Shown here in pieces: positions 12,128 through 58,803 of a stretch of 64,000 bases of DNA. Within the stretch, counting starts at the first letter, position 1. Every line of letters starts with the position of its first letter. The notes beneath the pieces were generated by a model. It was not told the origin of the DNA and did no database searches. It saw nothing but the letters and a program-made list of their open reading frames with translations. Source of the DNA: a virus; IMG/VR virus record IMGVR_UViG_2921643360_000001, positions 1-64,000 of that record. The stretch is one strand, 5' to 3'. The translations under genes and the position numbers were made by a program.

Positions 12128-12910
12128 TCAGGTGCTGCGATACATGCCGGATCCGCGCGGCACGATGGCGCCTACACGATGGATAGACACGATATCGGCC
12201 AGCGACCTCGTGATTGGAGGAATGCCATTGTTGATCGAACCAAGGCTGACTTCCTCATCACGGATCCACAACAATTCTTTGACGACAGCGCTGCCGTCGA
12301 CAAACTTGACCACCACATCATCACCCGGAAGAGCTTCGACGCCGGGTTCCACAACGATGTGTTCGCCACTCTTTATGCGCGGCCTCATGCTATCGCCGCG
12401 CACCTTCAAACCATAGGCCGTTGGGTCTGGTGAATGGATGTTGAGCCATCCATGGCCGTGACCTGGCGGATAGTCGTCGATACTGATAAACCCATCCGGC
12501 CCACCCTGCACTTCCCCGACCACGGCTATATCCCTCCCAGCCTTTAGTTCCAATCGCTCGCCAACGTTTGCTTCTGCTCGTGGCAGGCCTTCGATACTAG
12601 CCCCACCTTTCGGGACCGAAGGCGCAATCATGCCTGACTTTTGCCGGTTCTTCGAGATATCAGTGTCCGCTGAAATGTGGTTGCCGGTGACGCCCAAATC
12701 GAAGTAGAGAGTCGGCAAGCCAAGTTCGGACTCGAGTCGCCGCGCAGCTCCTTCGCCGAACCCGCGTCCCTCCCGATAGTTCGGGTTCAGCAGTTGTCGG
12801 ATCCGAGCCGCATCCTGGTTGTGCAGTCGAGCGAATTCAGCGGCGACCCCTCCCGCCTCCCTGTCCACTAGTTCCTGTAGCCGCTTACGGCGGTGCGCAT
12901 GTATGTCCAT
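12128..12910 (-). CDS. cI-type repressor (N-terminal HTH + C-terminal S24 LexA-like autopeptidase)
   Basis: S24 Ser/Lys dyad motifs (GDSMRPRIKSGEHIVVEP; VVKELL). Transcribed divergently from a cro-like gene. Start chosen at MDIHAHRRKRLQ (ATG 12908-12910). Confidence 0.85.
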   Translation of the reverse strand: MDIHAHRRKRLQELVDREAGGVAAEFARLHNQDAARIRQLLNPNYREGRGFGEGAARRLESELGLPTLYFDLGVTGNHISADTDISKNRQKSGMIAPSVPKGGASIEGLPRAEANVGERLELKAGRDIAVVGEVQGGPDGFISIDDYPPGHGHGWLNIHSPDPTAYGLKVRGDSMRPRIKSGEHIVVEPGVEALPGDDVVVKFVDGSAVVKELLWIRDEEVSLGSINNGIPPITRSLADIVSIHRVGAIVPRGSGMYRST

Positions 12911-12932
12911 GGCGGAATTAGAACCGAAAACT

Positions 12933-13001
12933 AGCATTTGCTGTGAAAGCAGAATTTATCATTTCAGCACGCAAATGCTTGCGTTTAGCGGAAGCATTTG
13001 C
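12933..13001. promoter_or_regulatory. operator region of the immunity switch (three copies of AGCATTTGC / GCAAATGCT)
   Basis: AGCATTTGC at 12933-12941 and 12993-13001; the inverted copy GCAAATGCT at 12971-12979. All lie in the 103-bp gap between the divergent repressor and cro starts. Confidence 0.55.
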
Positions 13002-21361: not shown

Positions 21362-21582
21362 ACATCCGCGATATAGCAGGCATATCCAGCCAGCAGGAAC
21401 TGTACGAACTGGCGTCGAACTTCAATGTTCACGTCGGCAGCATGGACAAGCTGATCCGATTCGCCGGCGAACTCCAAAAGCGCGCCCTAGCCGACCACGC
21501 AAAGCGCGAGCTGGCGATGGATCGACTTGTTGAGGATGCGGAAGAGCTCGGACTTTATAACGAACCGGAGAAAGCAGCGTGA
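21358..21582 (+). CDS. hypothetical small protein
   Basis: 74 aa, coupled. Confidence 0.4.
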   Translation: MNIRDIAGISSQQELYELASNFNVHVGSMDKLIRFAGELQKRALADHAKRELAMDRLVEDAEELGLYNEPEKAA

Positions 21583-22199
21583 AGAAACTGATTCTCAAGA
21601 AACTGTTGCGGGTGCATTCCAACGCCTGCTCTACGCCCTACTACCACCTGTCCGGCTACATGCTACGCGACTGGATTCTCGGTTACCGCAGCCCGGATCG
21701 AAACGCCGATAACCCAGCATGGAAAGCGGGCTTTAGCCCGAAGTCGTCGGCGCTCTATCGCTGGATCTGCCGCAACGTCGCTATCCGCGCTCACACGATC
21801 CTGCGCAGCGACAACGACCGTCACTTGCACGACCATCCGTCGTGGTCGCTGTCGATCGTGCTGTCGGGCGGGTATTGGGAAGTGTGCGAGCCGACCGAAT
21901 GGGCGAAGCAATTCGGAGCAACGTACCGCCGAATCGTCGACGGACTCGACCGGGGAATGATCGACAACGAAGACAGTTACGAACTCGACTACGTTGCACG
22001 GTTCGGAATCTTCTGGCGCGGACCCGGCGCGATCGTCCTGCGTCGCGCTACTGACTTCCATCGCCTGATCCTGCCACGTGGCACGGTCGCCAAGTCAATA
22101 TTCGTCATGGGCAAGAAAACCAACAGTTGGGGCTTCCTGACGCCTAACGGCAAGGTCTACTGGCGCACGTATCTCGGTCTCGACAAGGAACAAGCATGA
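21579..22199 (+). CDS. hypothetical protein
   Basis: 206 aa. Contains a His-rich segment (HLHDHPSWSLSIVLSGGYWEV); the fold is not recognised. Confidence 0.45.
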   Translation: MKKLILKKLLRVHSNACSTPYYHLSGYMLRDWILGYRSPDRNADNPAWKAGFSPKSSALYRWICRNVAIRAHTILRSDNDRHLHDHPSWSLSIVLSGGYWEVCEPTEWAKQFGATYRRIVDGLDRGMIDNEDSYELDYVARFGIFWRGPGAIVLRRATDFHRLILPRGTVAKSIFVMGKKTNSWGFLTPNGKVYWRTYLGLDKEQA

Positions 22200-23266
22200 C
22201 TCTCGAACACTCGCAGACAGGCGGAATCGGAGACGTCAATTCCAGCGAGCGCGGCTCCGGAGCGAGATACAACACGGGCAAGGTTGCTATCGAGTTGATC
22301 CCTCTGCGTCTGATCGCGGAACAACTTGAACACGCCACGTCGGAAGACGATCCGCAAAACACGCTTATCGGCGCCCTGTGGAATCTCGCGTTGTTTCAGG
22401 AAGGCGGCGAGGCGCATTACCTGCGCGCGGCAATCGAAAACGTCGGATCGGCATGGGACGAATGCGCGGCGGTATTCGACTACGGGCGGAAGAAATATAG
22501 CAAGCGAGGTGATTGCACATGCAGTGCGGGCGATGCGGTACGACTGAACCTGAGCGGTTCTATCTATACACCTACAAAGGCGCAAACATCCGAAAGTTGC
22601 TCAAGGGATTTTGCAAGCCTTGCTACGACAAAGACCTCAAAGAGCGGAATCCAGGGTATCGGAAGCGACAAACCGAAAACCATCGAAAGTGGCTCGCAAA
22701 CCCTGAGAACAGAGAGCGAGCGCGCGCATCTGAACGGAAGCGATCTGCAAAGCGAAAGCTGGACCCAAATTACAAGGAGCAATCCAAGCTCTACCGAATC
22801 AAGCAGGAATACGGACTCACGCCTGAGCAGTACGACACCCTCATCGCGGCAGGATGCGCAATCTGCGGAAGCTTCGATCGATTGCATGTCGACCATTGCC
22901 ACGACAAAGGACACGTCAGAGCAGCGTTATGCCATTCCTGCAACATTGGCCTTGGATTTGTCGAAAGGCCTAACGGCTGGCTTGAGCGCGCACTCGAATA
23001 CCTGCGGCGTACATCAGACGCCGGGGCACACGGGTAACTGGAACTGGGCCAAGGGAATGGCGTGGAGCGTTCCCCTCGCCTGCGCTGCCCGCCATCTGAT
23101 CTTCGGCATGATGGCCGGTGAAGAACTCGACCCTGAATCGGGCCTGCCCCATCGCGGTCACTTCCTCTGCAATCTCGTGATGCTGCTGACGTTCATGCGG
23201 ACCTATCCGGAGGGAGATGATCGTCCGTCGCAATGGTTGGCTACGCCGACACAGGAAGCCGCATGA
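22196..23266 (+). CDS. MazG-like dATP/dGTP pyrophosphohydrolase-family protein interrupted by a 540-bp insertion (reading frame stays open)
   Basis: N-terminal 100 aa and C-terminal 75 aa look like protein. The central 180 aa are S/T-rich low complexity and correspond to an alternative frame of the nested HNH gene. Confidence 0.45.
   Translation: MTLEHSQTGGIGDVNSSERGSGARYNTGKVAIELIPLRLIAEQLEHATSEDDPQNTLIGALWNLALFQEGGEAHYLRAAIENVGSAWDECAAVFDYGRKKYSKRGDCTCSAGDAVRLNLSGSIYTPTKAQTSESCSRDFASLATTKTSKSGIQGIGSDKPKTIESGSQTLRTESERAHLNGSDLQSESWTQITRSNPSSTESSRNTDSRLSSTTPSSRQDAQSAEASIDCMSTIATTKDTSEQRYAIPATLALDLSKGLTAGLSAHSNTCGVHQTPGHTGNWNWAKGMAWSVPLACAARHLIFGMMAGEELDPESGLPHRGHFLCNLVMLLTFMRTYPEGDDRPSQWLATPTQEAA
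22519..23037 (+). CDS. endonuclease VII-family HNH nuclease
   Basis: LHVDHCHDKGHVRAALCHSCNIGLG is the EndoVII/HNH signature. GAGGTG RBS 8 nt upstream of ATG 22519. Lies wholly inside 22196..23266 in a different frame. Confidence 0.75.
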   Translation: MQCGRCGTTEPERFYLYTYKGANIRKLLKGFCKPCYDKDLKERNPGYRKRQTENHRKWLANPENRERARASERKRSAKRKLDPNYKEQSKLYRIKQEYGLTPEQYDTLIAAGCAICGSFDRLHVDHCHDKGHVRAALCHSCNIGLGFVERPNGWLERALEYLRRTSDAGAHG

Positions 23267-23747: not shown

Positions 23748-23881
23748 GCACCGCCACCTACTACTCAATCCTCGCCACGATCTGCCTCACGCGAGTGGTG
23801 CCTAGGTGGGCTTGCATCGCCAGCGGGATCGTCTATCTCGGGCTTGCGGTTGCTCTTGACATGGGGTGGTTTGCACGATGA
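23744..23881 (+). CDS. 45-aa small membrane protein
   Basis: MSTATYYSILATICLTRVV...; ATGA overlaps on both sides. Confidence 0.3.
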   Translation: MSTATYYSILATICLTRVVPRWACIASGIVYLGLAVALDMGWFAR

Positions 23882-24489
23882 ACCGTCTCCCCAGAAAAAA
23901 GAAGTGCGCAGCTTGCAAGACGGTTTTCGAACCAGCGCGCTCACTCCAGAAAGTGTGTAGCCCCAAGTGTGCCGCCGATTTTGCAGCGAAACAGAAAGCG
24001 CAGAAGTTGGCGAGGGCGAATCGGGAGGAGAGGAAGTCCCTCGCAGAGCGTAAAGCCAAGCTCAAGACTCGCCGCGAGTGGATTGCCGAGGCTCAGGCGG
24101 CATTTAACGCATACGTGCGTGAGCGAGATTACGGGAAGCCATGCATAAGTTGCGGCATCCCGCCGAGGGAAGCTTTCGGCGGCGCTGTTGATTGCGGTCA
24201 TTATCGAAGTGTTGGCAGCGCTTCTCAGCATCGCTTCAATTTAAAAAATTGCGCTGCACAATGTGTCAAATGCAATAGATATTTAGGATCTAATGCCGTC
24301 GAAATGAGGAAAGGACTTATAATTAAGATTGGTCTAGAAGAATTGGAAAATCTAGAGTCAGACCAGACCATCAAGAAGTTCAACATCGAATACCTCGCTC
24401 GCATCAAGCGAGTCTTCCTCAAGAAAGCGCGGCGAGCTAAGGCCCGGAGAAATCATGAGCATAACGAAATGGAATATGCAGCCGGGTGA
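23878..24489 (+). CDS. ninG: NinG / Rap-like protein
   Basis: Cys motifs of the lambda NinG family: CAACKT...CSPKC...CISCG...DCGHYRSVG...RFNLKNCAAQCVKCN. Confidence 0.8.
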   Translation: MNRLPRKKKCAACKTVFEPARSLQKVCSPKCAADFAAKQKAQKLARANREERKSLAERKAKLKTRREWIAEAQAAFNAYVRERDYGKPCISCGIPPREAFGGAVDCGHYRSVGSASQHRFNLKNCAAQCVKCNRYLGSNAVEMRKGLIIKIGLEELENLESDQTIKKFNIEYLARIKRVFLKKARRAKARRNHEHNEMEYAAG

Positions 24490-25264
24490 CCGGTTTTGTC
24501 GGCTGACCTTCAAGAGTGAAGGCGACGGTCGTAAAAATCGGGCGAGATATGGAATCTTCATCTGCGATTGTGGTACCGAGAAAGATGTGGCGTTCTCGCA
24601 CGTTGTTTCGGGAAAAATAAAAAGTTGTGGATGCCTCAAAGCGGAAGATGCCGGTAACAGGCTTCGCACTCATGGGATGCATGGTTCGCCAGAATATACG
24701 GTGTGGCAAGACATGTGGCAGCGCTGCACCAATCCAAAGACGGACAGATATCCGAATTACGGCGGACGGGGCATATCCGTCTGCGAGCGGTGGAAGTCGT
24801 TCGAGAACTTCTTTGCAGACATGGGTCAGCGCCCAGAAGGAACGTCGATAGAGCGAAAGGAGACGAACGGCAACTACGAGCCAAGTAACTGTCGTTGGGC
24901 CACGCCCAAGGAGCAAGGAAGGAATAGAACCAACAACCGTTTTATCGAATACAACGGGGAGAGGAAATGTGTTTCTGAATGGAGCGAGCAATTCGGCATA
25001 CCTCATTCAACGATTAACAATCGACTTCGGCTAGGGTTATCGTTAGATCAGGTTTTTGATGCAAGTGCAGATGGGTTTAAAAAGAAGTCAATCGTTGTCG
25101 ATGGTGTATCGAAGTGCACCAACGAATGGATGCGTGATGCTGGCATACCGATTTCGTCCTTCTATCACTTCCGGCGAAAGGGGCTGACTGAAGAAGAGAT
25201 CGTCAGGAAGTATCTGGCGCGCAAGCAACCCTACTCTCAAACGAATAACGAGGAAGCAGCCTAA
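24455..25264 (+). CDS. HNH-like (HNH_3-type, N-C-R-W-A-T element) homing-endonuclease-like protein, paralogue 1
   Basis: N-terminal CxCG...SCGC zinc ribbon; then HG..SPEYTVWQDMWQRC...YGGRGISVCERW...ADMGQRPEG.SIERKETNGNYEPSNCRWATPKEQGRNR. Clear paralogue of 51329..51952 and 58804..59472. Confidence 0.55.
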   Translation: MSITKWNMQPGDRFCRLTFKSEGDGRKNRARYGIFICDCGTEKDVAFSHVVSGKIKSCGCLKAEDAGNRLRTHGMHGSPEYTVWQDMWQRCTNPKTDRYPNYGGRGISVCERWKSFENFFADMGQRPEGTSIERKETNGNYEPSNCRWATPKEQGRNRTNNRFIEYNGERKCVSEWSEQFGIPHSTINNRLRLGLSLDQVFDASADGFKKKSIVVDGVSKCTNEWMRDAGIPISSFYHFRRKGLTEEEIVRKYLARKQPYSQTNNEEAA

Positions 25265-25848: not shown

Positions 25849-26060
25849 CCTTCATTGCTTTCGGCGTCGGCATGATATTCGCCTATGGGTCTGTTCTGGA
25901 GGTCCTACTTATTATGCCGGGGCGTAAGCCGCCCGCTCCGCCGCCTACCAAGTTTCGACGCAAGTATCGAGACCTTCCCGTTGCCGACATTCCGCCGCCG
26001 TGGGAGAGAGTCGAAGGCATCGATTACAAATGGATAAACATTGCGGGAGAGCAGGAATGA
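25845..26060 (+). CDS. hypothetical small membrane protein
   Basis: 71 aa with an N-terminal TM helix. Confidence 0.35.
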   Translation: MTFIAFGVGMIFAYGSVLEVLLIMPGRKPPAPPPTKFRRKYRDLPVADIPPPWERVEGIDYKWINIAGEQE

Positions 26061-26317
26061 ACAAGCCTTCAGAACACTTTCTGCGAATGATGGTCGCGGC
26101 GTTTTACGAACTGCCGGGAAATTGCGTAGGCGGTTGTCTGCGCATCGTCCTCGATGATGACAACCTCGAAGACCATCACGTCCGCTGGTGTCGGGAGGAG
26201 GCGCAAAAGCGAAACGACCAGGATGCGATGTTTATGTGTGACGTGCTGATGCTCTACACCGAGGACGAGCGATTCGAGATTCTGGAGACTCGCGGGCTTC
26301 CACCGTACGAAGAGTAA
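26057..26317 (+). CDS. hypothetical protein
   Basis: Start at the internal ATG (MNKPSEHF...). Confidence 0.4.
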   Translation: MNKPSEHFLRMMVAAFYELPGNCVGGCLRIVLDDDNLEDHHVRWCREEAQKRNDQDAMFMCDVLMLYTEDERFEILETRGLPPYEE

Positions 26318-26432
26318 AAGTGTTGTCCTCGCGTGCGCATAGCACACCATAGCGCGTAGGACAACGAAATTTATGATACTATTAGTAGGTTAACAAGCGT
26401 TGTTTTCCACAATAGATTGTGCGGGGTTCAAG

Positions 26433-26831
26433 ATGACGCAAGAACAATCCGATGAAGTTGAGCATTTGCTGAGAACATGGTTTGAGTGGCAATGTCGCCA
26501 GTCCATCGCCATGCACGCGAAGATGTATTACCGCCCTGCCGATTCTATGGGTCGCCAATCGATCACGAATCGCACGTGCGAAGAGGACGATGAAGTCGCG
26601 TATCAATGGGCGGACGATCAGCAATCGGAGCAAGTCCAACTCTGCGTCGACGAACTCACGATCGACCAGCGAGCGGCGATATCAACATCGATGCGTAATA
26701 AGGCTAGCGACGCGTCAGTGTGGAGATCAGTGCGCGTTGGCGATCAGCACGCCGTCTATCAGTCGGCAAAGTCTGACCTTATCCCGATGCTGGCTGCGCG
26801 GCACCTTATTCGGATGGAGATGGCGGTATGA
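26433..26831 (+). CDS. hypothetical protein
   Basis: 132 aa; first gene after an AT-rich promoter-like island. Confidence 0.45.
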   Translation: MTQEQSDEVEHLLRTWFEWQCRQSIAMHAKMYYRPADSMGRQSITNRTCEEDDEVAYQWADDQQSEQVQLCVDELTIDQRAAISTSMRNKASDASVWRSVRVGDQHAVYQSAKSDLIPMLAARHLIRMEMAV

Positions 26832-27553
26832 GCTTCGTTCAACGCTTCGAGCGCAACAAGGTCGGTAGGGACTTCGCAGTTGGCGACATTCACGGCCATT
26901 TCCGCGCGCTCTGGACTGTTCTGGGAAGCATTGGCTTCGACCGAGAGAAAGACCGCCTGTTTAGCGTTGGCGATCTGGTCGACCGTGGGCCCGATTCGGA
27001 GATGGCTCTGGATTGGATCGACGAACCGTGGTTCCATGCCGTGCGCGGCAATCACGAGGATATGGCTATTCGCTGGCCCAGCGGCAACATGGATGCGGCG
27101 CACTATGCGGCCAATGGCGGAGGCTGGAATGTGTCGAACCCTCGCCATGCGCAGTTAGCGTTCTCGTGGGCGTTCAACGCCCTGCCAATCGCCATCGAGG
27201 TAGAGACGGAGGACGGAAAGGTCGGCATCGTGCATGCGGACTGCCCTTTCCCGACGTGGCGCGATTTCGTTGTGTCGCTGGATGACGCCAGCATGTCGAA
27301 CAAGATGCGCAAGGCGGTATTCGAGGCGGCGCTCTGGTCGCGTGAGCGGATTCAGGATGAGGACCGCTCCGGCGTGCCGGACATTCGCGCGCTGATTGTC
27401 GGTCATACGCCGCTCAAGAAACCCGCCGTGCTTGGCAATGTGCATTACATCGACACTGGCGGCTGGTTCCGTGACGGCTATTTCACGCTAATCAATCTGG
27501 CAACGCTGGAGACGATCCCGCCGATGCCTGAGCAATTGGATTGTGCGGCTTGA
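26828..27553 (+). CDS. Ser/Thr protein phosphatase (lambda PPase / NinI-like metallophosphoesterase)
   Basis: GDIHG, GDLVDRGP and GNHE motifs. Confidence 0.85.
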   Translation: MSFVQRFERNKVGRDFAVGDIHGHFRALWTVLGSIGFDREKDRLFSVGDLVDRGPDSEMALDWIDEPWFHAVRGNHEDMAIRWPSGNMDAAHYAANGGGWNVSNPRHAQLAFSWAFNALPIAIEVETEDGKVGIVHADCPFPTWRDFVVSLDDASMSNKMRKAVFEAALWSRERIQDEDRSGVPDIRALIVGHTPLKKPAVLGNVHYIDTGGWFRDGYFTLINLATLETIPPMPEQLDCAA

Positions 27554-27630
27554 AAAATATTTGAGAAAAGTGCTTGCGCAACGATTCTAGCTGTGGCATT
27601 GTTCGGGGTAGGGGCCTTGCGCCCAAATCA

Positions 27631-27663
27631 GCCCGATCCAGCGAAAGCCGGTCGGGCTTTTTC
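27631..27663 (+). terminator. rho-independent terminator
   Basis: GCCCGA-N15-TCGGGC hairpin followed by TTTTT. Confidence 0.65.
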
Positions 27664-27665
27664 AT

Positions 27666-27902
27666 TTGGTCTCCGTGATGCGCTCAACTGCCCTTCCCTC
27701 TAGTCACTACCGCGACCCGATGGAGGTCGCTATTGCGAATCAGGAGCGCGAAGCCAGAGAGAAGCGCCGAGCCGAAGAGAAGCCCCGACGTCCAATCCTG
27801 ACATTGAAGGAATCGGATGCCGAGAAAGCGAAGCGCTCTCGCGCCGCGCGAGAGGCAGCCGAAGAATTATTCGAAATCCCGCCGCGACTCGGAAGGTCAT
27901 GA
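27666..27902 (+). CDS. hypothetical small protein
   Basis: 78 aa, Arg/Glu-rich. Confidence 0.3.
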   Translation: MVSVMRSTALPSSHYRDPMEVAIANQEREAREKRRAEEKPRRPILTLKESDAEKAKRSRAAREAAEELFEIPPRLGRS

Positions 27903-27973
27903 GTTGCACCAAGCCCGCAGCAAGCAGCGCAATACTGCTCTCGCCGGTTCGCCGGCCAGAATTCGGAGTGTGA

Positions 27974-28213
27974 ATGACCGTCTACTACCTTGCGCAAGCC
28001 GATAACGGCAGGATCACGCTCGACCGCGAATGCCACGGTAGCCTGATAAAGGCGATCACGGTCAACGATCCGCCCATTATTCGGCGCGAGATTGACGGCG
28101 AGATGGTGGATTGTCCGCAGTATTGGGAAAGCTACGCCGAAGCCCGCCAGCAAGTGAACGCAAGTGAGTTCGATCATGTGCGTGGCGAAGGCTACTTTGC
28201 GAGGAAGCAGTGA
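27974..28213 (+). CDS. hypothetical small protein
   Basis: 79 aa. Confidence 0.35.
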   Translation: MTVYYLAQADNGRITLDRECHGSLIKAITVNDPPIIRREIDGEMVDCPQYWESYAEARQQVNASEFDHVRGEGYFARKQ

Positions 28214-28315
28214 TGGGCTGGAATCCAGTAGCAGCGTGGCTGATGTGGCTCGCGACCTGGAACATGGGTGCAACCCAGATGCTTCTAGACATGGCGGATC
28301 GGATGGAAGGCGACG

Positions 28316-28522
28316 GTGATTGACCGAATTGGCGTAGAGCCGAAAGTCTACCCGCGCGTGCATTGCTCGCCAGACATTCTGGTAGAGCGCTCCGCGACAT
28401 TCTTAACCGCTGGCCAAGTCGTGACAATGATCTGGTCGGAGCGCGATAAGGTTTTCAAGATGCCTGAGCCACGCAGCGAGGCTGTCGAGAAGTTGCGGCG
28501 ACAACTACTGGCGCAACGCTGA
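28316..28522 (+). CDS. hypothetical small protein
   Basis: 68 aa. Confidence 0.35.
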   Translation: MIDRIGVEPKVYPRVHCSPDILVERSATFLTAGQVVTMIWSERDKVFKMPEPRSEAVEKLRRQLLAQR

Positions 28523-29073
28523 GCTTTGTACGACTTTTCACCCGCGTACGCATTTCTCGTACACCACCAGAAACCGTACGCAAAGTTCCGCAGAAAGCCG
28601 GAAGAATGCCGCCAGGCAAGGCTCTGAGCGGGATAGTTCTGATGGAACAGGAATAAAGACGGGGTTGATCGCCCGTCATGCGCCCGATGCGTCGGGGGTC
28701 GCAATGGCAGCAGCCAGGAAGCAAAGGAGTGAAGCCGCTCCGCCCATTGGGTGCCTGGCTAGGGTGTTGCATGGACTGAGTAGTTGCATGCTGCCGGTCG
28801 CTCCACGAAACGGAGTGCTTTCGTTTATGCTGCCCGGTCCGAACTGGCATGGGTAAAGAGTACGGCGCAAAGAACCTTCCAGGAGGGCCGCCGTTAAATC
28901 GCACGTAGCAGCCTACCAAGGCGGCATAAACGAAGGTGAAACAGAGTCAGCAGCGCGCGCCGATAGGCGGGTATATGCCCATGCGGGCTGAGCGTGAATC
29001 CTTCACCCCTCCCCACGACGACACCCTCGTCGCTGCCCGCGCTGATGCGGGCTTTTTTTATTCTGGTGCGACC

Positions 29074-29460
29074 ATGCCGCGCAAACCTAAGACGGCACCG
29101 GTCGAATGGCTTGAGATTCCCGTTTTCCCGATTCCGATTTATGCCGGCAAGGTCCTCTTGTGTGTAACTCGTGATGAATGGTCGAGCGTCGCGCATGCCT
29201 ACGATAGCGACCCGGACACGGACGGATGCAAAGGGCTGGCGATTCGCCACCTGAACGACGACGGACGTACGTATGTGATCGGCGTCTTCGATGGCGCAAC
29301 AGACACGTTTGTCCACGAGCTGGCACACACGGTATTTCATCTGCTGGGCGATGTCGGAATACCGGTTGAATCCGGCGAAGCGAATGAGGCGTTCACATAT
29401 CTGATTGGCTGGCTAATGCGCGAGGTGTTTCCAGTATTCCTCGCCAGAACGAAAACTTAA
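29074..29460 (+). CDS. DUF955 / ImmA-IrrE-like HEXXH metallopeptidase-domain protein
   Basis: VHELAHTVFH motif. Start chosen at MPRKPKT (Met47 of the listed ORF). Confidence 0.4.
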   Translation: MPRKPKTAPVEWLEIPVFPIPIYAGKVLLCVTRDEWSSVAHAYDSDPDTDGCKGLAIRHLNDDGRTYVIGVFDGATDTFVHELAHTVFHLLGDVGIPVESGEANEAFTYLIGWLMREVFPVFLARTKT

Positions 29461-29469
29461 GGGGAAAGC

Positions 29470-30648
29470 ATGCCTATCGCGCGCCAGTACGACGAACGGT
29501 TAAAAGAGTTTGCCGACAGCCGCGAGGCCGAATTCCTCAGTGCTGTGCTGGAGCATGGTTCGCCCAATGCGGCGGCCAAAGCGCTCGGGAAGCATCACAG
29601 CACCGTCATTCGGGCGCTGGACAGTTTAGAAGCGCGCGCCGCACGCATGGGTTATGCGCCGGCCTACGACATGACGCGTCCATGCCCGCCGGGGTTCCGG
29701 TCGCGCGGCACGTCGACACTCGTCAAGGCTGACGGCTCCATTGCCATGCAATGGGTGAAGACGGAAGCCGACAAGTCACAAGACGAAGCGATTCTCCGCG
29801 AGTTTGCCCAATCGCTGGCGGATGGCGTGAAGGGCTTGGCACCGATTACGCCCGCGCCGGCGCACGTTGTTTCCGATCTGCTGTGTGTCTATCCTCAAGG
29901 TGACCCACACGTCGGTTTGCATAGCTGGTGGGCTGAAGCCGGAGAAGACTTCGACCTGAAGATTGCCGAACGCCTGATGTGCGCCGCGGTTGATCGACTC
30001 GTCGCAACCGCGCCAGCAGCCGAAACCGCCCTGCTCCTAAATTTAGGAGATATGTTCCATGCTGACAATCAGAAGAACGAAAGCCAGTCGGGACATAAAT
30101 TAGACGTCGACGGACGCTGGGCAAAGGTTCAGCAGGTAGGATTGCGCGCGATGCTGCACTGTGTGCGCCGCCTGCTTGAAAAGCATAAGCGCGTGATTCT
30201 CCGCATCAACCGCGGCAATCACGACGGCCATTCGTCGTATGCGTTGGCGCTGATGATCTCGTGCTACTTCCACAATGAGCCGCGCGTGGAGGTCGACTTG
30301 TCACCCGCCGTCTGCTGGTATCACCAGTTCGGCGGCAACCTGATTGGATCGACGCACGGCGACACGATCAAAGGCCCGAATCTGCTGCCCGTCATGGCAG
30401 CGGACGTCCCCGAGATGTGGGGCGCAACAAAGCATCGCATGTGGTTCGTGGGTCACGTCCACCATCAGGACATCAAGGAATACCCGGGCGGCACGGTGGA
30501 GTACTTCCGCACGCTGGCCGCTCGTGATGCGTGGCACGCCGGGCAGGGATACCGCGCCGGACGCGACATGCGCCTGATTGTGCTGCACCGTGAGCACGGC
30601 GAGATCGAGCGGCACCGCGCAGACATTGGAATGCTGGAGGCGGCATGA
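29470..30648 (+). CDS. fusion of N-terminal HTH and calcineurin-like metallophosphoesterase (Mre11/SbcD-like)
   Basis: N-terminal HTH (LEHGSPNAAAKALGKHHSTVIRAL). Downstream metallophosphoesterase motifs: GDPHVG, GDMFHAD, NRGNHD, GHVHH. Confidence 0.55.
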   Translation: MPIARQYDERLKEFADSREAEFLSAVLEHGSPNAAAKALGKHHSTVIRALDSLEARAARMGYAPAYDMTRPCPPGFRSRGTSTLVKADGSIAMQWVKTEADKSQDEAILREFAQSLADGVKGLAPITPAPAHVVSDLLCVYPQGDPHVGLHSWWAEAGEDFDLKIAERLMCAAVDRLVATAPAAETALLLNLGDMFHADNQKNESQSGHKLDVDGRWAKVQQVGLRAMLHCVRRLLEKHKRVILRINRGNHDGHSSYALALMISCYFHNEPRVEVDLSPAVCWYHQFGGNLIGSTHGDTIKGPNLLPVMAADVPEMWGATKHRMWFVGHVHHQDIKEYPGGTVEYFRTLAARDAWHAGQGYRAGRDMRLIVLHREHGEIERHRADIGMLEAA

Positions 30649-30959
30649 AAGCGATGACCAGCGGCGAGAAGGTCGCCCAGCTTGAGGCGCGCATTGCAGA
30701 GTTGGAGCGCTTGGTTGGCATTCTGACGCGTGAGCGCGATTCGAAGCCGCCTGCGGTGTACGGACCGCTCGACAGGACGCCAACACTTCCGGGCTGGCCG
30801 ATGGACCCAAAGCCGTTCGAGCCGGTATTCCCGCTGCCGGGAGCCATGCCAACGTGCGGTAAGTGCGGCATTACGCTGTCGCCGGTCATGGGCTATTGCT
30901 GCTCTCGCACTGATTGCCCGTGCGGGCTTGGCGGCGTCACTTGCACGACGACGGCATGA
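30645..30959 (+). CDS. hypothetical protein (coiled coil + Cys-rich C-terminus)
   Basis: 104 aa; LEARIAELERLVGIL followed by CGKCG...CCSRTDCPCG. Confidence 0.4.
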   Translation: MKAMTSGEKVAQLEARIAELERLVGILTRERDSKPPAVYGPLDRTPTLPGWPMDPKPFEPVFPLPGAMPTCGKCGITLSPVMGYCCSRTDCPCGLGGVTCTTTA

Positions 30960-31029: not shown

Positions 31030-31368
31030 TTAAACGCTTCCGGAGCGGCGCACCTTCACATTGATCGTGCGCTTTCCTGATGCGTCGACTGACGTGCTGG
31101 GCCGATCGAACTTTGCCGTGCGAGGGCGCTCCTGATTCAGCGTCTCCGCAGCTTGCGCCAGCGACTCCAGCGCGAACTGTTCCGGGTAAGTCATCTCGAC
31201 GTCAGTAGTCTTGCCGTCGACCTCGCGCGAGCCGGCTATCAGGTAACGCAACCGGCGCTCGCTGATACCGATCGTGGTTGCAATCCAGAACTGAGATTTG
31301 CCGATGCGCTCGACCAGCTTGCGAACGGTTTCGGCGCGCGGGTCGTGGTTGTCTGAGTTAGGTGTCAT
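31030..31368 (-). CDS. HTH DNA-binding regulator (possibly Mor/C-like late activator; low confidence)
   Basis: HTH segment KSQFWIATTIGISERRLRYLIAG. Opposite orientation inside the late region. Confidence 0.5.
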   Translation of the reverse strand: MTPNSDNHDPRAETVRKLVERIGKSQFWIATTIGISERRLRYLIAGSREVDGKTTDVEMTYPEQFALESLAQAAETLNQERPRTAKFDRPSTSVDASGKRTINVKVRRSGSV

Positions 31369-31513: not shown

Positions 31514-31813
31514 TCAAAGAACGATGCTGGAGATTTCTGCTGCGCGCTTCGCGGCGGCGATCGCCTTATCTGCTGCGTGGGCTGCGGCACGTTGTGCATC
31601 GGCGATGAGTTCTTTTGCCTCGGCAACGGTGATCTTCTCGACGCCGTTGTGCGGGACAAACTTGTAGATCTGTGTGCCAGCCTTGTTGACGAGGATGTAT
31701 GCGTCGGGTGCAAAGTCGCCGGGAGTGGCGATTGCAGCCTTTACGGTGAGGCTCAGGAAGCCAACCTTAACGGTTGCGCCGATGGACCAATCTTGCTTGC
31801 TCTTCGTGATCAT
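31514..31813 (-). CDS. hypothetical protein
   Basis: Start chosen at MITKSKQDW. Confidence 0.4.
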   Translation of the reverse strand: MITKSKQDWSIGATVKVGFLSLTVKAAIATPGDFAPDAYILVNKAGTQIYKFVPHNGVEKITVAEAKELIADAQRAAAHAADKAIAAAKRAAEISSIVL

Positions 31814-31871
31814 TTCGTTTCTCCGGGTTCGCCTTCCACGTTGTGTGGCGGCATGTGTGAATCTTAGGTGA

Positions 31872-31938
31872 GGCACACTGTGCCGTCAAGCGTTATTTAG
31901 GATATTTGTGCCTCAGAATAACGAGCGGATACGGCACA
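31872..31938. promoter_or_regulatory. divergent promoter/operator region with GGCACA/TGTGCC repeats
   Basis: 13-bp perfect palindrome GGCACACTGTGCC at 31872-31884, plus TGTGCC at 31907-31912 and GGCACA at 31933-31938. Lies between the minus-strand HTH operon and the TerS-like gene. Confidence 0.5.
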
Positions 31939-31991: not shown

Positions 31992-32648
31992 ATGGCCCTT
32001 TGCGGAGCCAAAAACCGCAGCGGTCAGCCTTGCAAACGCCACGCAACGGTAGGAGCCAAGCGCTGCAAGTTGCACGGCGGCAACAACAAGCCGGCGAAGA
32101 AGGGTAACGCGTACGCATCCAAGCCTGGTTCGCTCTACAGCAAGTACCTAACCGACGACGAGCGCGCTATTGCCGCGTCGCTTGAACTCGGCGGCGTCGA
32201 CGAAGAGTTGCGCCTTACCCGCATCCGCCTGATGCGCGCCCTGCAGCGTGAGGCCGACAAGGGCGACACACCGGAGCTTGACGAGCAGGTTGAGCGCGAA
32301 GGCGCCGAGAACGTCACGGCCAAGAGCGAGACCAAGTACAAGGTTCGCGACTACGTGACGATGATCGACCGGCTGACGGCTCGCGTCGAGTCCCTGGAGG
32401 CGCGTCGTGCTGTCCTGCTCCAGCAGCAGACGGACATCGAACTGAAGCGCAATGCTGATCGCCGCGCCGAAGAGATGCACGACATCGAGGCGCAGGTTAA
32501 GCGTCTTGATATCCAGCGCAAACAGAAAGAAGCCGCGCTGACGAATGTCGAGATCACGAACAACATCATGCCGGTTCCGACCGCTGACAGCGTCGATAGC
32601 TGGGAGCAGGTTGCATCGGCGCAGCAAGACAAGTCGCTGGGGCGGTAA
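31992..32648 (+). CDS. terminase small subunit-like DNA-packaging protein
   Basis: N-terminal CGAKNRSGQPCKRHA...KRCKLHGG Zn-ribbon motif and a coiled-coil C-terminus. Immediately precedes TerL. Confidence 0.5.
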   Translation: MALCGAKNRSGQPCKRHATVGAKRCKLHGGNNKPAKKGNAYASKPGSLYSKYLTDDERAIAASLELGGVDEELRLTRIRLMRALQREADKGDTPELDEQVEREGAENVTAKSETKYKVRDYVTMIDRLTARVESLEARRAVLLQQQTDIELKRNADRRAEEMHDIEAQVKRLDIQRKQKEAALTNVEITNNIMPVPTADSVDSWEQVASAQQDKSLGR

Positions 32649-34207
32649 TGGCCTACAACGTCGTTTGGAAGCCGCTCCCTGGCTCGCAATCGCTGGCGCT
32701 GTCGTGTCCGTGCAATGAGATCCTGTACGAAGGGACTCGTGGGCCTGGCAAGACGGCTGCTCAGCTTGCCCGATTCCGTCGCAACGTTGGCCGCGGTTAC
32801 GGCTCGTTCTGGCGCGGAATCATCTTCGACATCGAGTATAAGAACCTCGCCGACATCATCACGCAGAGCAAGCGGATGTTTCGCCTGTTCAACGATGGCG
32901 CTCGGTTTCTGTCGTCTGCATCCGAACTGAAGTGGGTTTGGCCCACTGGCGAGGAACTGCTGTTCCGGTTCGCGAAGGACGAGGACAAGTATTGGGACTA
33001 TCACGGGCAGGAATTCCCGTTCATCGGCTTTAACGAGCTGACGAAGCAGACGAGTAGCGCCTTTTACGAGGCGATCATGTCGTGCTTGCGGTCGTCTTTT
33101 AGGCCGCAGGACTATCCGCGCCCAGATGGCTCGCTGTTGCCGAATATCCCGCTTGAGATGTTCAGCACGAGCAACCCGTTTGGCGTCGGACATGCGTGGG
33201 TGAAGAAGCGTTTCATCGAACCAGTGCCGCGCGGTCGCGTTCTGCGTACGAAGCAGGTTGTGTTCAACCCGCAGACGAAGCAGGACGAGGAAATTACCCT
33301 CACTCGCGTGGCGATTCACGGCAGTTACAAGGAAAACCCGTTCCTTGACCCGGTGTACGTCGCGACGCTGATGAATATCCGCGATCCGAACAGGCGCAAG
33401 GCTTGGGTAGAAGGATCGTGGGATGTGACGAGCGGCGGACGGTTCGACCATCTCTGGCGCGAATCGACGCACGTCATCAAGCCGTTTCAGATTCCGGCAT
33501 CGTGGCACGTCGATCGTTCGCACGACTGGGGCGAATCGAAGCCATTTGCCAATCTCTGGTGGGCGGAATCAGATGGTTCGGCTGTCGCGATAAACGGTCG
33601 GCATCGCGTATTCCCCAAGGGGACGCTGTTCCTGATCGGCGAATGGTACGGTTGCCCTCCCGGTGAGTTGAATACTGGCCTGAATATGTCGTCTACGGAC
33701 GTCGCAAAGGGCGTCAGGTGGATCGATGCACGTCTGGCTGGTCAAACTGCGGAGATGCCGGCGAGCTTGAATCAAGGCCAGGTCAATATCATGCCCGGCC
33801 TGTGCTCGAAGGTGGCGCCCGGCCCTGCCGATTCGTCAATCTTCAACACTGGCGACCATGAGTTGTCTATCGCCGAGAAGATGAGAAAGCAGGGCGTGTC
33901 GTGGCGCGAGTCTGACAAGCGTCCTGGCAGCCGCAAAAACGGCGCATCGCTCTTCTGCGACATGCTCGAAGCGGCGCTCAACGGGCAAGTATCCGAATCC
34001 GGCCAGCCGGAGGAGCCCGCTTTCTACGTTTTTGAGCATTGCCGCGGATGGATCAGCCGAATCCCGATTCTGCCGCGCGACTCGAAAGACCCTGACGACG
34101 TCGATACCAGCGCCGAAGACCACGATTGGGACGCGACGCGTTATCGAGTCCTAGTCAAGCGCGGTACTGCATCGCATCAGGCAAGCGTCCCCCACATGCA
34201 CAGGTGA
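32648..34207 (+). CDS. terminase large subunit
   Basis: Walker A YEGTRGPGKT and C-terminal RNaseH-like nuclease motifs (DWG...DHDWDATRY). Confidence 0.9.
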   Translation: MAYNVVWKPLPGSQSLALSCPCNEILYEGTRGPGKTAAQLARFRRNVGRGYGSFWRGIIFDIEYKNLADIITQSKRMFRLFNDGARFLSSASELKWVWPTGEELLFRFAKDEDKYWDYHGQEFPFIGFNELTKQTSSAFYEAIMSCLRSSFRPQDYPRPDGSLLPNIPLEMFSTSNPFGVGHAWVKKRFIEPVPRGRVLRTKQVVFNPQTKQDEEITLTRVAIHGSYKENPFLDPVYVATLMNIRDPNRRKAWVEGSWDVTSGGRFDHLWRESTHVIKPFQIPASWHVDRSHDWGESKPFANLWWAESDGSAVAINGRHRVFPKGTLFLIGEWYGCPPGELNTGLNMSSTDVAKGVRWIDARLAGQTAEMPASLNQGQVNIMPGLCSKVAPGPADSSIFNTGDHELSIAEKMRKQGVSWRESDKRPGSRKNGASLFCDMLEAALNGQVSESGQPEEPAFYVFEHCRGWISRIPILPRDSKDPDDVDTSAEDHDWDATRYRVLVKRGTASHQASVPHMHR

Positions 34208-57691: not shown

Positions 57692-57976
57692 ATGGACAAC
57701 ACGGTCCTCTACATTGGCGGCGCTGTAGCTGGCGCTATCGGCACGGTTGCCTGGTGGGCTGTTCGTGCGATGCACGCGCGCATCAACGAGAACGCTAAAG
57801 ACCTCTCCGACTACAAGCTCTACGCGGAAAAGCGTTTCGTGACATCCGACGAACTGACGAAGGCCATCGGAAATCTCGAAGGATCAATCGAGCGCCTGAT
57901 TGAATCAGTCGATACCAACGCCAAGGAAATGCGCGAGTGGTTCCGGCTGCTCCAGCAGACGAAGGCAGATAAGTAA
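57692..57976 (+). CDS. holin-like protein (single N-terminal TM + coiled coil)
   Basis: LYIGGAVAGAIGTVAWWAV transmembrane segment. Sits immediately upstream of the endolysin. Confidence 0.45.
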   Translation: MDNTVLYIGGAVAGAIGTVAWWAVRAMHARINENAKDLSDYKLYAEKRFVTSDELTKAIGNLEGSIERLIESVDTNAKEMREWFRLLQQTKADK

Positions 57977-58014
57977 CCGCTTTATCCCCTGCAACACCGC
58001 TCTAAGGTATAGCC

Positions 58015-58629: not shown

Positions 58630-58803
58630 TTATCCCCTCGCATCCCTCGCTAAGGGATAGCGGCCAAACGGGTAATTTCACGATAACTGCGACACGCGTA
58701 GCTCGATCGTAGTCCGAAATTTTGAGGTAAAATAGCGAGAGCGGAAAGGTACTTGCGATACCGATCCGCTCTCTAACCAAAGCCTGCTTACAAGGAGCAA
58801 ACT

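What the first reader, a model, noticed from the sequence alone, without database searches (positions are those of the whole stretch)
29074..30959. Unusual trio ahead of the packaging genes: HEXXH (DUF955/ImmA-like) protein, HTH fused to an Mre11/SbcD-like metallophosphoesterase, and a Cys-rich coiled-coil protein
Seen:
- VHELAHTVFH in a 128-aa protein.
- A 392-aa protein with an N-terminal HTH and a complete calcineurin-like motif set (GDPHVG, GDMFHAD, NRGNHD, GHVHH).
- A 104-aa protein with LEARIAELERLVGIL and CGKCG...CCSRTDCPCG.

All three are translationally coupled (...MLEAA-ATGA...).

The HTH-phosphoesterase fusion is not a standard phage replication or packaging component.

Inference: these are either a DNA end-processing or cos-maturation accessory, or an anti-defence or regulatory module. 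For example the ImmA-like peptidase might cleave a repressor, and the phosphoesterase might degrade cyclic-nucleotide immune signals.
Basis: partly seen in the sequence, partly recalled or inferred. Interest (0 to 1): 0.55.

Follow-up and report, generated by a model that had tools for sequence, protein, structure and literature searches.

The report
Widespread phage HTH-phosphoesterase plus zincin partner
The three genes are real, but they are not a three-part system: the central one belongs to a very common, still uncharacterised phage family of DNA-binding, Mre11-like metallophosphoesterases, the small HExxH gene is a lineage-specific companion of such enzymes, and the cysteine-rich gene is an unrelated passenger.

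Summary
All three ORFs exist as described, in a lambdoid prophage of Paraburkholderia steynii. They lie just after a strong terminator and ahead of TerS/TerL.

- **A (128 aa):** PHROG 1365, with an invariant thermolysin-type HExxH-x19-NE signature. It is not Pfam M78/DUF955. Its fold has no convincing match in the PDB.
- **C (104 aa):** a rare coiled-coil plus zinc-ribbon protein. Its homologs sit in other phages with no B nearby.

The trio is unique to this window. However, close A homologs are always directly followed by an HTH-metallophosphoesterase gene, in about 20 distinct loci, and that partner comes from three different PHROG families.

Best reading: B is a late-expressed, HTH-tethered DNA nuclease, A is its lineage-specific accessory, and C is a passenger. 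Nothing supports the ImmA-type repressor-cleavage idea or the cyclic-nucleotide idea.

The parts
29035..29062 (+). Strong intrinsic terminator (GCCCGCgctgatGCGGGC plus T7) ending 12 nt before the ATG of A. It closes a 550-nt ORF-poor stretch (28523-29073). It is probably the read-through terminator that marks the start of the late operon.
   Evidence: 7-bp stem, 6 GC pairs, T-run. (sequence); 28930-29100 is 74% identical to the region upstream of A in L091/L092. The late-operon role is inferred from gene order; no Q-type antiterminator was identified.
29074..29460 (+). Gene A: a 128-aa protein of PHROG 1365 with an invariant gluzincin-type signature. HELAH lies at residues 81-85 (nt 29314-29328) and N104-E105 at nt 29383-29388, giving HExxH-x19-E.
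   Evidence: phrog_1365, E 2.9e-22; 42 homolog clusters, invariant H81 E82 H85 N104 E105; motif kept in ST64T gp49 and mEp013 gp66; AF2 pLDDT 89; no convincing PDB fold match.
29470..30648 (+). Gene B: a 392-aa HTH-metallophosphoesterase, a full-length member of PHROG 704.
29494..29646 (+). B residues 9-59: helix-turn-helix domain (LysR/ModE-like by HMM, LuxR/sigma-4-like by fold). This is the fastest-evolving part of the protein.
29695..29823 (+). B residues 76-118: beta-hairpin plus helix linker (invariant G89 and W95). It belongs to the conserved core even in relatives that lack the HTH.
   Evidence: many relatives match from query residue about 70 onwards behind different N-termini.
29869..30624 (+). 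B residues 134-385: calcineurin-like binuclear metallophosphoesterase domain. Motifs: I GDPH (D145, H147), II GDMFH (D194, H197), III GNHD (N250, H251), IV H296, V GHVHH (H329, H331).
30645..30959 (+). Gene C: a 104-aa protein with an N-terminal coiled coil, a Pro-rich linker and a C-terminal Cys cluster (C71 C74 C86 C91 C100; nt 30855-30944). Its start overlaps the stop of B (ATGA). It is adjacent to B here but is evolutionarily independent of A and B.
   Evidence: 9 homolog clusters; invariant Cys, VM.Y and P.GLG; homologs lie in nin-like regions of other phages with no B gene nearby; a 189-aa relative follows B in L011-L014.

Best explanation
**What is shown.** The locus is the first stretch of the late operon of a lambdoid Paraburkholderia prophage. 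It carries three accessory genes of unequal standing.

- B is an ordinary member of a very large phage family, PHROG 704. It has an N-terminal helix-turn-helix, a beta-hairpin/helix linker and a calcineurin-like two-metal phosphoesterase domain with every catalytic ligand conserved.
- A is a small protein with a thermolysin-type zinc-binding signature.
- In this phage lineage, A is found only immediately upstream of HTH-phosphoesterase genes.
- C is a small zinc-ribbon/coiled-coil protein that travels independently. It happens to sit here and is translationally coupled to B.

**What is inferred.** B is an Mre11/SbcD-like, Mn2+-type DNA endo/exonuclease that works without a Rad50 partner. The HTH holds it on DNA. 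It is made late, together with the lysis and packaging genes. Its likely job is one of two: trimming or clearing DNA structures (ends, hairpins, branches) in replicated phage DNA before packaging, or destroying competing host DNA. The fast-evolving HTH would give each phage its own DNA or partner specificity.

A most likely acts as a zinc-dependent accessory of these enzymes, either processing or regulating them or acting on the same target. It is not a repressor protease.
For: **Family and fold of B**
- Full-length PHROG 704 match, E 6e-102.
- 2056 phage records, spanning Drexlerviridae-type, Webervirus-type and Jersey-type phages and phages of Vibrio, Rhodobacter, cyanobacteria and Flavobacterium.
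- 5365 clusters at 50% identity.
- Motifs I-V are invariant down to 28% identity, including the Mre11-style GDxFH and GNHD.
- The best profile hit in the PDB is T. maritima Mre11/SbcD. There is a weak NCBIfam hit to the ligase-associated DNA-damage endonuclease PdeM.
- An HTH-less relative in Campylobacter phage F355 lies between a DNA ligase and other DNA-metabolism genes.

**Late-operon position**
- A terminator lies directly upstream.
- In PBR31, B follows antiterminator Q and precedes the terminase.
- The upstream neighbour of B is a spanin or endolysin in many IMG/VR loci.
- B follows the lysis genes in RcGingersnap and sits just before the holin in Stevie.

**HTH variability:** 1.6-2.0 bits versus 0.56 bits in the enzyme domain.

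**A-B link**
- In all 28 loci with a close A homolog and room downstream (about 20 distinct loci), a 386-406-aa HTH-metallophosphoesterase gene starts within -3 to +66 nt.
- The partner belongs to phrog_704, phrog_284 or phrog_20266.
- A stays 59-83% identical while the partner's enzyme domain ranges from 93% identity to unalignable.

**Other**
- C is independent of A and B.
- Precedent for a phage metallophosphoesterase acting as a DNA-degrading enzyme: mycobacteriophage A10ZJ24 gp48 (PMC12287305). That is a different, HTH-less family.
Against: - No member of PHROG 704 has been characterised, as far as my searches show. The substrate is therefore inferred, not shown.
- The sequence match to Mre11/SbcD is sub-threshold (E 0.04).
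- B itself has no Pfam Metallophos hit.
- The model is only moderately confident (pLDDT 76.6), with two family-specific conserved loops disordered.
- There is no Rad50/SbcC-like gene in the window, so B is not a canonical Mre11 system.
- The A-to-partner synteny comes from one narrow clade of related prophages. It could be positional, with both genes simply occupying the first slots of the late operon.
- Remote A relatives in P22-like phages have no phosphoesterase neighbour.
- A's peptidase nature rests on a motif only; fold searches were inconclusive.
Confidence: 0.45

Rival explanations
1. Anti-defence signal eraser. B hydrolyses nucleotide second messengers of CBASS, Pycsar, Thoeris or type III CRISPR systems. 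A and C are further anti-defence factors.
Against: A DNA-binding HTH is conserved in most members and has no obvious use for a small-molecule hydrolase. The family is conserved across virulent and temperate phages of Proteobacteria, cyanobacteria and Bacteroidota, which argues against a role tied to one defence system. Known signal-degrading phage enzymes (Acb1, 2H fold; Apyc1, metallo-beta-lactamase fold; from my own knowledge) have other folds, and none appears among the hits. PADLOC gave no meaningful match.
Confidence: 0.1
2. Transcription factor. B is chiefly a late-gene or host-gene regulator that binds DNA through its LysR/ModE-like HTH. The phosphoesterase domain serves as a ligand sensor or an auxiliary enzyme.
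For: HTH_1, HTH_30 and HTH_50 hits. Depositors often annotate homologs as LysR-family or winged-helix regulators. B sits at the start of the late operon, after Q in PBR31. The recognition helix is variable, as in specific DNA binders.
Against: All catalytic metal ligands are invariant across the whole family, so catalysis is under selection. The enzyme core is the conserved unit, and the HTH is replaced or missing in many relatives. The enzyme domain is three times more conserved than the HTH.
Confidence: 0.12
3. Nucleic-acid end-healing enzyme. B is a 2',3'-cyclic phosphodiesterase / 3'-phosphatase that repairs tRNA or DNA ends damaged by host nucleases, like the metallophosphoesterase module of bacterial Pnkp.
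For: In some Klebsiella phages the homolog lies next to or overlaps features annotated as polynucleotide kinase or HAD hydrolase (H53 and H59). In Campylobacter phage F355 it lies next to a DNA ligase. There is a weak hit to the ligase-associated PdeM.
Against: These neighbours are sporadic. Most loci show lysis or packaging neighbours instead. No kinase or ligase is present near B in this window. I did not verify the neighbouring annotations.
Confidence: 0.1
4. A-B adjacency is positional only. A, B and C are three unrelated accessory genes that share the first slots of the late transcript, and A has no functional tie to B.
For: B occurs without A in 80 of 84 B-seeded loci. Remote A relatives in P22-like and mEp phages occupy the same lysis-to-terminase slot without any phosphoesterase. 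A, the HTH and the enzyme domain recombine independently. The promoter-proximal region upstream of A is also conserved, so A may move together with it.
Against: All of about 20 distinct close-A loci have an HTH-metallophosphoesterase as the very next gene, even though that gene comes from three PHROG families and ranges from 93% identity to unalignable. That would be unexpected if only position mattered.
Confidence: 0.4
5. ImmA-type switch. A is an ImmA/IrrE-like protease that cleaves the prophage repressor or an HTH protein to control induction.
Against: There is no Pfam M78/DUF955 hit for A or its relatives. A lies behind a terminator in the late region, 16 kb from the repressor. The CI-like repressor has a UmuD/S24-like autocleavage domain. 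The third-ligand spacing is thermolysin-like rather than ImmA-like; this comes from the motif and my own knowledge.
Confidence: 0.03

Closest known systems
PHROG 704 ('DNA repair exonuclease'; e.g. Citrobacter phage Stevie gp37, Xanthomonas phage PBR31 orf015, Rhodobacter phage RcGingersnap gp50)
   Same: Full-length HMM match (E 6e-102). Same length of about 390 aa. Same HTH plus hairpin plus metallophosphoesterase architecture, same invariant motifs, and a similar position near lysis and packaging genes.
   Different: Nothing essential: B is a member. Only the flanking genes A and C differ. The family name is an annotation, not a tested function. Depositors variously call it oxidoreductase, protein phosphatase, LysR regulator or phosphoesterase.
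Mre11 / SbcD nucleases (and phage T4 gp47-type enzymes)
   Different: No Rad50/SbcC ATPase partner in the window. No recognisable capping domain or Rad50-binding helices. An N-terminal HTH takes their place. The sequence similarity is not statistically significant (E 0.04).
PdeM, the ligase-associated DNA-damage-response metallophosphoesterase (TIGR04123)
   Same: A stand-alone metallophosphoesterase thought to cut DNA without a Rad50 partner. Weak HMM hit over motifs I-II.
   Different: E 0.006, at 16 bits against a 150-bit cutoff. No ligase or Lhr helicase neighbour here. PdeM has no HTH.
Mycobacteriophage A10ZJ24 gp48 metallophosphoesterase (PMC12287305)
   Same: A phage-encoded metallophosphoesterase with five motifs, reported to have phosphodiesterase activity and to break host genomic DNA. 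It is a functional precedent.
   Different: It is reported as an early gene and is a different family, with motif I at the N-terminus (the D10G mutant) and hence no room for an HTH. I did not test its homology to B.
Lambda NinI-type Ser/Thr protein phosphatase
   Different: This prophage has its own NinI-like gene at 26828-27553 (phrog_246, E 3e-72; Pfam Metallophos 4e-14). B lacks that family's signature and has GNHD rather than GNHE.
PHROG 1365 (e.g. Salmonella phage ST64T gp49, phage L Orf129, epsilon34 gp70, coliphage mEp013 gp66)
   Same: A matches the profile (E 2.9e-22). HE.AH...DVG...NE is invariant. Same slot between lysis or late-promoter functions and the terminase.
   Different: Those relatives (29-34% identity) have no metallophosphoesterase neighbour. 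Function is unknown in all of them.
Thermolysin-type gluzincins and minigluzincins
   Same: HExxH followed 20 residues after the second His by a Glu within an 'NE' motif, as in thermolysin's HExxH...NExxSD (own knowledge). The order of secondary-structure elements, beta-sheet then helix then HExxH helix then Glu helix, fits the minimal zincin plan.
ImmA/IrrE (Peptidase M78, DUF955)
   Same: A small HExxH protein encoded by a mobile element.
   Different: No HMM match. No adjacent XRE-type repressor partner. Late-operon location. The prophage repressor cleaves itself.

Membership tests
PHROG 704 (HTH-metallophosphoesterase, 'DNA repair exonuclease') | Significant, full-length match to the family profile | tested here: met
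   E 6.4e-102, protein residues 20-389 on profile positions 10-389 of 390.
PHROG 704 (HTH-metallophosphoesterase, 'DNA repair exonuclease') | Shared architecture and length with phage members | tested here: met
   1902 of 2056 phage records cover at least 80% of B. An alignment with PBR31, AsC4_1, Stevie, Pan3, AP-16-3 and RcGingersnap keeps the HTH, hairpin and enzyme core.
Calcineurin-like metallophosphoesterase superfamily | Five metal-ligand motifs: DxH, GD, GNH[DE], H, GHxH | tested here: met
   D145/H147, D194, N250/H251, H296 and H329/H331 are invariant in close and distant relatives.
Calcineurin-like metallophosphoesterase superfamily | Beta-sandwich metallophosphoesterase fold | tested here: met
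Calcineurin-like metallophosphoesterase superfamily | Pfam PF00149 / PF12850 match above the gathering score | tested here: not met
   No Metallophos hit for B at E<=0.1. Relatives reach only 16.5-20.6 bits against cutoffs of 21.5 (PF00149) and 27 (PF12850). The family is a divergent branch.
Mre11/SbcD nucleases | Significant sequence-profile similarity | tested here: inconclusive
   Best PDB profile hit is T. maritima Mre11/SbcD, but at E 0.04 and over motifs I-II only.
Mre11/SbcD nucleases | Rad50/SbcC-type ATPase partner encoded alongside | tested here: not met
   No ORF of 600 aa or more in the window. The two P-loop ORFs are helicase-type. The 578-aa ORF has no Walker A motif and no PHROG hit.
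Mre11/SbcD nucleases | Capping domain and Rad50-binding helices C-terminal to the nuclease domain | tested here: not met
   B ends right after the metallophosphoesterase core (strands 367-384 of 392 residues). The extra domains are N-terminal (HTH and hairpin).
Mre11/SbcD nucleases | Mn2+-dependent DNA endo/exonuclease activity | not testable with these tools
   Needs biochemistry.
PHROG 1365 (gene A) | Significant match to the family profile, with a conserved motif | tested here: met
   E 2.9e-22, residues 18-122 on profile positions 8-116 of 127. HE.AH...NE is invariant in P22-like and mEp members.
ImmA/IrrE peptidase M78 (DUF955) | Match to Pfam Peptidase_M78 or a related HMM | tested here: not met
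   No Pfam family for A at E<=0.1. Among 5 family members at E<=10, the only hit is SprT-like at 0.083 in one member.
ImmA/IrrE peptidase M78 (DUF955) | Adjacent cognate XRE/ImmR-type repressor substrate gene | tested here: not met
   A's neighbours are a terminator and the phosphoesterase gene. The prophage repressor lies 16 kb away and carries an S24-like domain.
Gluzincin metallopeptidases | HExxH plus a downstream Glu third ligand at thermolysin-like spacing | tested here: met
   H81-E82-x-x-H85 and N104-E105 (20 residues after H85) are invariant in 40 close and 2 distant homologs. The comparison with thermolysin's spacing is from my own knowledge.
Gluzincin metallopeptidases | Zincin fold | tested here: inconclusive
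Anti-CBASS Acb1 / anti-Pycsar Apyc1 signal-degrading enzymes | 2H-phosphoesterase fold or metallo-beta-lactamase fold | tested here: not met

The most novel reading that the evidence does not exclude
The small zincin (A) and the HTH-metallophosphoesterase form a genuine two-component late-phase system. A would activate, restrain or retarget a DNA-directed nuclease, for example by clipping off its HTH or by degrading a host inhibitor. The nuclease module would be exchangeable among three families (phrog_704, phrog_284, phrog_20266). On this reading the very common but unstudied PHROG 704 enzymes have a defined role in DNA maturation or host-DNA destruction that nobody has yet described.
Probability: 0.2. 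Interest if true: 0.6.

Novelty: new member of a known kind. Interest (0 to 1): 0.3.

Why it matters
The finding as written, an unusual trio, does not hold up. Two points remain useful.

First, PHROG 704 occurs in about 4% of deposited phage genomes, including the T1-like, Webervirus-like and Jersey-like phages much used in therapy work. It carries contradictory annotations (oxidoreductase, protein phosphatase, LysR regulator, DNA repair exonuclease), and I found no experimental study of it. A clear statement of its anatomy gives annotators a better label and gives experimenters a testable hypothesis. That anatomy is an HTH, a hairpin linker, and an intact Mre11-like two-metal centre with no Rad50 partner, encoded near the late, lysis and packaging genes.

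Second, the one-sided rule that the PHROG 1365-type zincin of Burkholderiaceae prophages is always followed by an HTH-phosphoesterase, whichever family that enzyme comes from, is a new and cheap-to-test lead for a functional pair.

Tried and rejected
- **Trio as a conserved module: rejected.** Neighbour analysis of 84 B-seeded loci, with iterated HMM searches, finds A in 4 and a C-like gene in 5. C homologs occur in phages without B.
- **A as ImmA/DUF955: rejected.** Pfam is negative and the genomic context is wrong.
- **B as TerS or a packaging protein: rejected.** No such hits.
- **B as a defence or anti-defence family member:** PADLOC gave only noise.
- **Direct sequence search of the PDB with B:** nothing. 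A profile search gave only a sub-threshold Mre11/SbcD hit.
- **Literature:** six searches found no characterisation of PHROG 704 or of HTH-metallophosphoesterases. The Metis preprint that turned up concerns a host defence metallophosphoesterase and T4 denA, and is not relevant.
- **DNA sites for the HTH:** only short, chance-level repeats around the locus.
- **Structured or known RNA in the 550-nt upstream gap:** no Rfam hit and only a modest folding z-score of -2.4.
- **A Q-type antiterminator in 26000-28522:** none found by PHROG, and the 143-aa ORF is unlike PBR31 Q.
- **Alternative N-terminal domains in longer PHROG 704 relatives:** Pfam finds no known domain.
- **A in species-representative genomes:** only one further locus.
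Full report
**Where we are.** The window is part of contig MWML01000013.1 of Paraburkholderia steynii GCA_004334975.1; proteins A and C are 100% identical to its annotated products. It carries a lambdoid prophage with these features:
- a CI-like repressor with a UmuD/S24-like C-terminus at 12128-12937, minus strand;
- helicase and methylase genes;
- a nin-like region with NinG (23866-24489), an HNH endonuclease (24455-25264) and a NinI-like Ser/Thr phosphatase (26828-27553);
- a 550-nt ORF-poor stretch that ends in a strong intrinsic terminator at 29035-29062;
- the three genes of the finding;
- two minus-strand genes;
- TerS (31992-32648), TerL (32648-34207) and the portal gene;
- head and tail genes;
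- only at 57.7-59.5 kb, a holin-like gene and an endolysin.

From gene order and the terminator I infer that A-B-C are the first genes of the late transcript. I did not identify a Q-type antiterminator.

**Check of the observation.** All three ORFs and all quoted motifs are present. B and C overlap by ATGA. A and B are 9 nt apart, with a GGGGAAAG ribosome-binding site between them. The GenBank record starts B at a GTG 25 codons downstream (367 aa). Homologs align from residue 3-8 onward, so the ATG at 29470 is the real start and the record truncates the first HTH helix. The motifs are not chance occurrences, because they are invariant in each protein's homologs.

**Gene B.**
- *Family.* PHROG 704 ('DNA repair exonuclease') matches B end to end (E 6.4e-102, profile positions 10-389 of 390). 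Pfam sees only sub-threshold HTH models and no Metallophos domain. The PDB has no sequence relative.
- *Distribution.* tblastn finds the protein in 2056 of 50,697 phage records, and 1902 of them cover at least 80% of its length. By host these are Escherichia 559, Klebsiella 468, Salmonella 373 and Vibrio 254, plus Campylobacter, Flavobacterium, Rhodobacter, Ruegeria and cyanobacterial phages. Depositors label it oxidoreductase, protein phosphatase, LysR regulator, phosphoesterase or DNA repair exonuclease.
- *Size of the family.* The 5.8-billion-protein index returns more than 2731 clusters. An exhaustive HMMER scan returns 5365 clusters at 50% identity, 1407 of them at E<=1e-30.
- *Catalytic residues.* The five metal-ligand motifs are invariant from 91% down to 28% identity. 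These include the Mre11-style GDxFH and GNHD.
- *Remote sequence similarity.* A profile of diverse members finds T. maritima Mre11/SbcD as its best PDB hit, but only at E 0.04. NCBIfam gives a weak hit to the ligase-associated endonuclease PdeM.
- *No Rad50 partner.* There is no Rad50/SbcC-like gene in the window.
- *Variable N-terminus.* Among 120 close relatives the HTH and linker are three times more variable than the enzyme domain (1.2-2.0 versus 0.56 bits per column). In many distant relatives the HTH is replaced by other N-termini with no Pfam match, or is missing.

**Position of B in other phages.**
- In Xanthomonas phage PBR31 it follows antiterminator Q and a 70-aa Cys-rich ORF, and precedes the terminase.
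- In T1-like phage Stevie it is the last gene before the holin.
- In Rhodobacter phage RcGingersnap it follows the holin, the endolysin and three small ORFs.
- In many IMG/VR contigs its immediate upstream neighbour is a spanin or an endolysin.
- In Campylobacter phage F355 an HTH-less version sits beside a DNA ligase.

The common theme is the late, lysis and packaging part of the genome, with highly variable immediate neighbours.

**Gene A.**
- *Family.* PHROG 1365, function unknown (E 2.9e-22).
- *Close homologs.* They are few: 42 clusters at 57-85% identity, from Burkholderiaceae-type sources.
- *Remote homologs.* These are 29-34% identical and occur in 118 phage records, mostly P22-like Salmonella phages (ST64T gp49, phage L Orf129, epsilon34 gp70) and mEp coliphages. 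They sit between the lysis cassette and TerS with no phosphoesterase nearby.
- *Signature.* H81-E82-x-x-H85, D93-V94-G95 and N104-E105 are invariant throughout. The Glu lies 20 residues after the second His, within an 'NE' motif. From my own knowledge, this is the spacing and context of thermolysin-type gluzincins.
- *Not ImmA.* Pfam does not see M78/DUF955.

**Gene C.** This is a rare family of 9 clusters. It has a variable coiled-coil N-terminus, a Pro-rich linker, and an invariant C-x2-C-x11-C-x4-C-P-x-G-L-G-G-x2-C end, which is most simply a small zinc ribbon. Its homologs lie in nin-like regions of unrelated phages, between NinG or replication genes and the terminase, with no B-like gene nearby. 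A 189-aa relative follows B in four IMG/VR loci. C is therefore an independent small accessory gene.

**Is there a module?**
- *Not the trio.* Among 84 loci seeded with B, A is upstream in 4 and a C-like gene is downstream in 5. Only this window has both.
- *A one-sided rule for A.* I collected every close A homolog I could reach in viral, metagenome and genome collections and in encoding contigs. In all 28 loci with sequence downstream (about 20 distinct loci), the next gene starts within -3 to +66 nt. It encodes a 386-406-aa HTH-metallophosphoesterase.
- *The partner varies.* It is phrog_704 in most loci, phrog_284 ('exonuclease') in L101, L110 and L119, and phrog_20266 ('metallo-phosphoesterase') in L094, L102, L103 and L116. 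The L094 protein shares the HTH (62% identity over 26 residues) but has its own DIHD / GDALD / GNHE / GHHHKH motifs.
- *Mosaic evolution.* A stays 59-83% identical, while the partner's HTH and enzyme domain vary independently, from 93% identity to unalignable.
- *Two readings remain.* A may depend functionally on this class of enzyme. Alternatively, in this clade of prophages the first two slots of the late operon may simply be filled this way. The region upstream of A is also partly conserved. I rate the two readings about equal.

**Mechanism.**
- *Shown:* family membership, architecture, an intact two-metal site, the absence of a Rad50 partner, the late-region position, the fast-evolving HTH, and the A-to-partner synteny.
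- *Inferred:* B is a DNA-directed Mre11/SbcD-like nuclease held on DNA by its HTH and made late. It would process phage DNA structures before packaging or degrade competing DNA. A would be a zinc-dependent accessory.
- *Precedent:* a phage metallophosphoesterase that damages host DNA exists in mycobacteriophage A10ZJ24 gp48 (PMC12287305), but that is a different family.
- *Gap:* I found no published characterisation of PHROG 704.
- *Rivals not excluded:* a signal-degrading phosphodiesterase, a transcription factor, and an end-healing enzyme. They fit the HTH, the invariant catalytic site or the broad host range less well.
- *Effectively excluded:* an ImmA-type repressor protease.

**Verdict.** The 'unusual trio' framing is not. 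B is a new member of a known, abundant and uncharacterised phage family. A belongs to another known family of unknown function. C is a rare passenger. The residual interest lies in the unexplained function of PHROG 704 and in the strict pairing of A with HTH-phosphoesterases.

Noticed in passing
window 28523-29073 (+), terminator 29035-29062: A 550-nt ORF-poor stretch precedes gene A and ends in a strong intrinsic terminator. Within it, 67 nt (28704-28770) are 87% identical to the region upstream of B in L012-L014, and 28930-29100 is 74% identical to L091/L092. The RNA folding z-score is -2.4 and there is no Rfam match. This is probably a conserved late promoter/leader, and no Q-type antiterminator was identified upstream.
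   Followed up: partly
window 29470-29545: The GenBank record (MWML01000013.1) starts B at a GTG at 29545 (367 aa). That removes the first helix of the HTH. Homologs align from residue 3-8, so the ATG at 29470, which has a good ribosome-binding site, is the real start.
   Followed up: yes
window 57692-59472: The lysis genes (holin-like 57692-57976; endolysin 58015-58629, phrog_181, E 4e-79) lie at the far right end of the prophage, not after the late promoter. They are followed by an HNH endonuclease (58804-59472) that matches the same PHROG families (phrog_374, phrog_3377) as the HNH at 24455-25264.
   Followed up: partly
window 12128-12937 (-): The CI-like repressor has a UmuD/S24-like C-terminal region (phrog_4, phrog_811), so it is presumably self-cleaving. 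This argues against any need for an ImmA-type protease.
   Followed up: partly
window 26828-27553 (+): There is a second, unrelated metallophosphoesterase in the same prophage: a NinI-like Ser/Thr phosphatase (phrog_246, E 3e-72; Pfam Metallophos 4e-14). The same NinI-like gene also lies upstream of A-B in L091/L092.
   Followed up: no
window 53929-55242 (+): A 437-aa ORF with radical-SAM-like PHROG hits (phrog_21308, E 1.4e-12) lies just after the tail-fibre assembly gene. It is a possible moron.
   Followed up: no
window 31030-31368 and 31514-31876 (-): Two minus-strand genes are inserted between C and TerS. The first matches phrog_3865 (unknown function) and has an HTH-like sequence. The second has no family match. 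They may be an inserted cassette that is expressed independently.
   Followed up: no
L001 4780-4992 (Xanthomonas phage PBR31 orf014); also L006, L007, L010-L014, L016: A 70-aa Cys-rich protein family (CxxC...C...CxC) occupies the slot directly upstream of B in 9 loci that lack A. It has no PHROG match.
   Followed up: partly
L006 8241-8897; L008 1326-2027; L009 3057-3758; L091 6613-7269; L093 3494-4156: A PF18894 'PhageMetallopep' gene (218-233 aa, HELYH motif) lies zero to about three genes downstream of B in several loci. This is a second kind of putative metallopeptidase that keeps company with this phosphoesterase.
   Followed up: partly
P0203-P0321: Many PHROG 704 relatives of 420-520 aa match B only from about residue 70 onward. 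They carry 100-200-aa N-terminal regions with no Pfam domain in place of the HTH.
   Followed up: partly
window 21579-22199 and 22196-23266 (+): An ORF with cysteine-dioxygenase-like PHROG hits (phrog_4786, E 1.3e-30) is followed by a 356-aa ORF. The C-terminus of that second ORF matches the families 'dATP/dGTP pyrophosphohydrolase' and 'endolysin; inhibits RNA polymerase'. GenBank instead calls a 174-aa Endonuclease_7 gene there.
   Followed up: no
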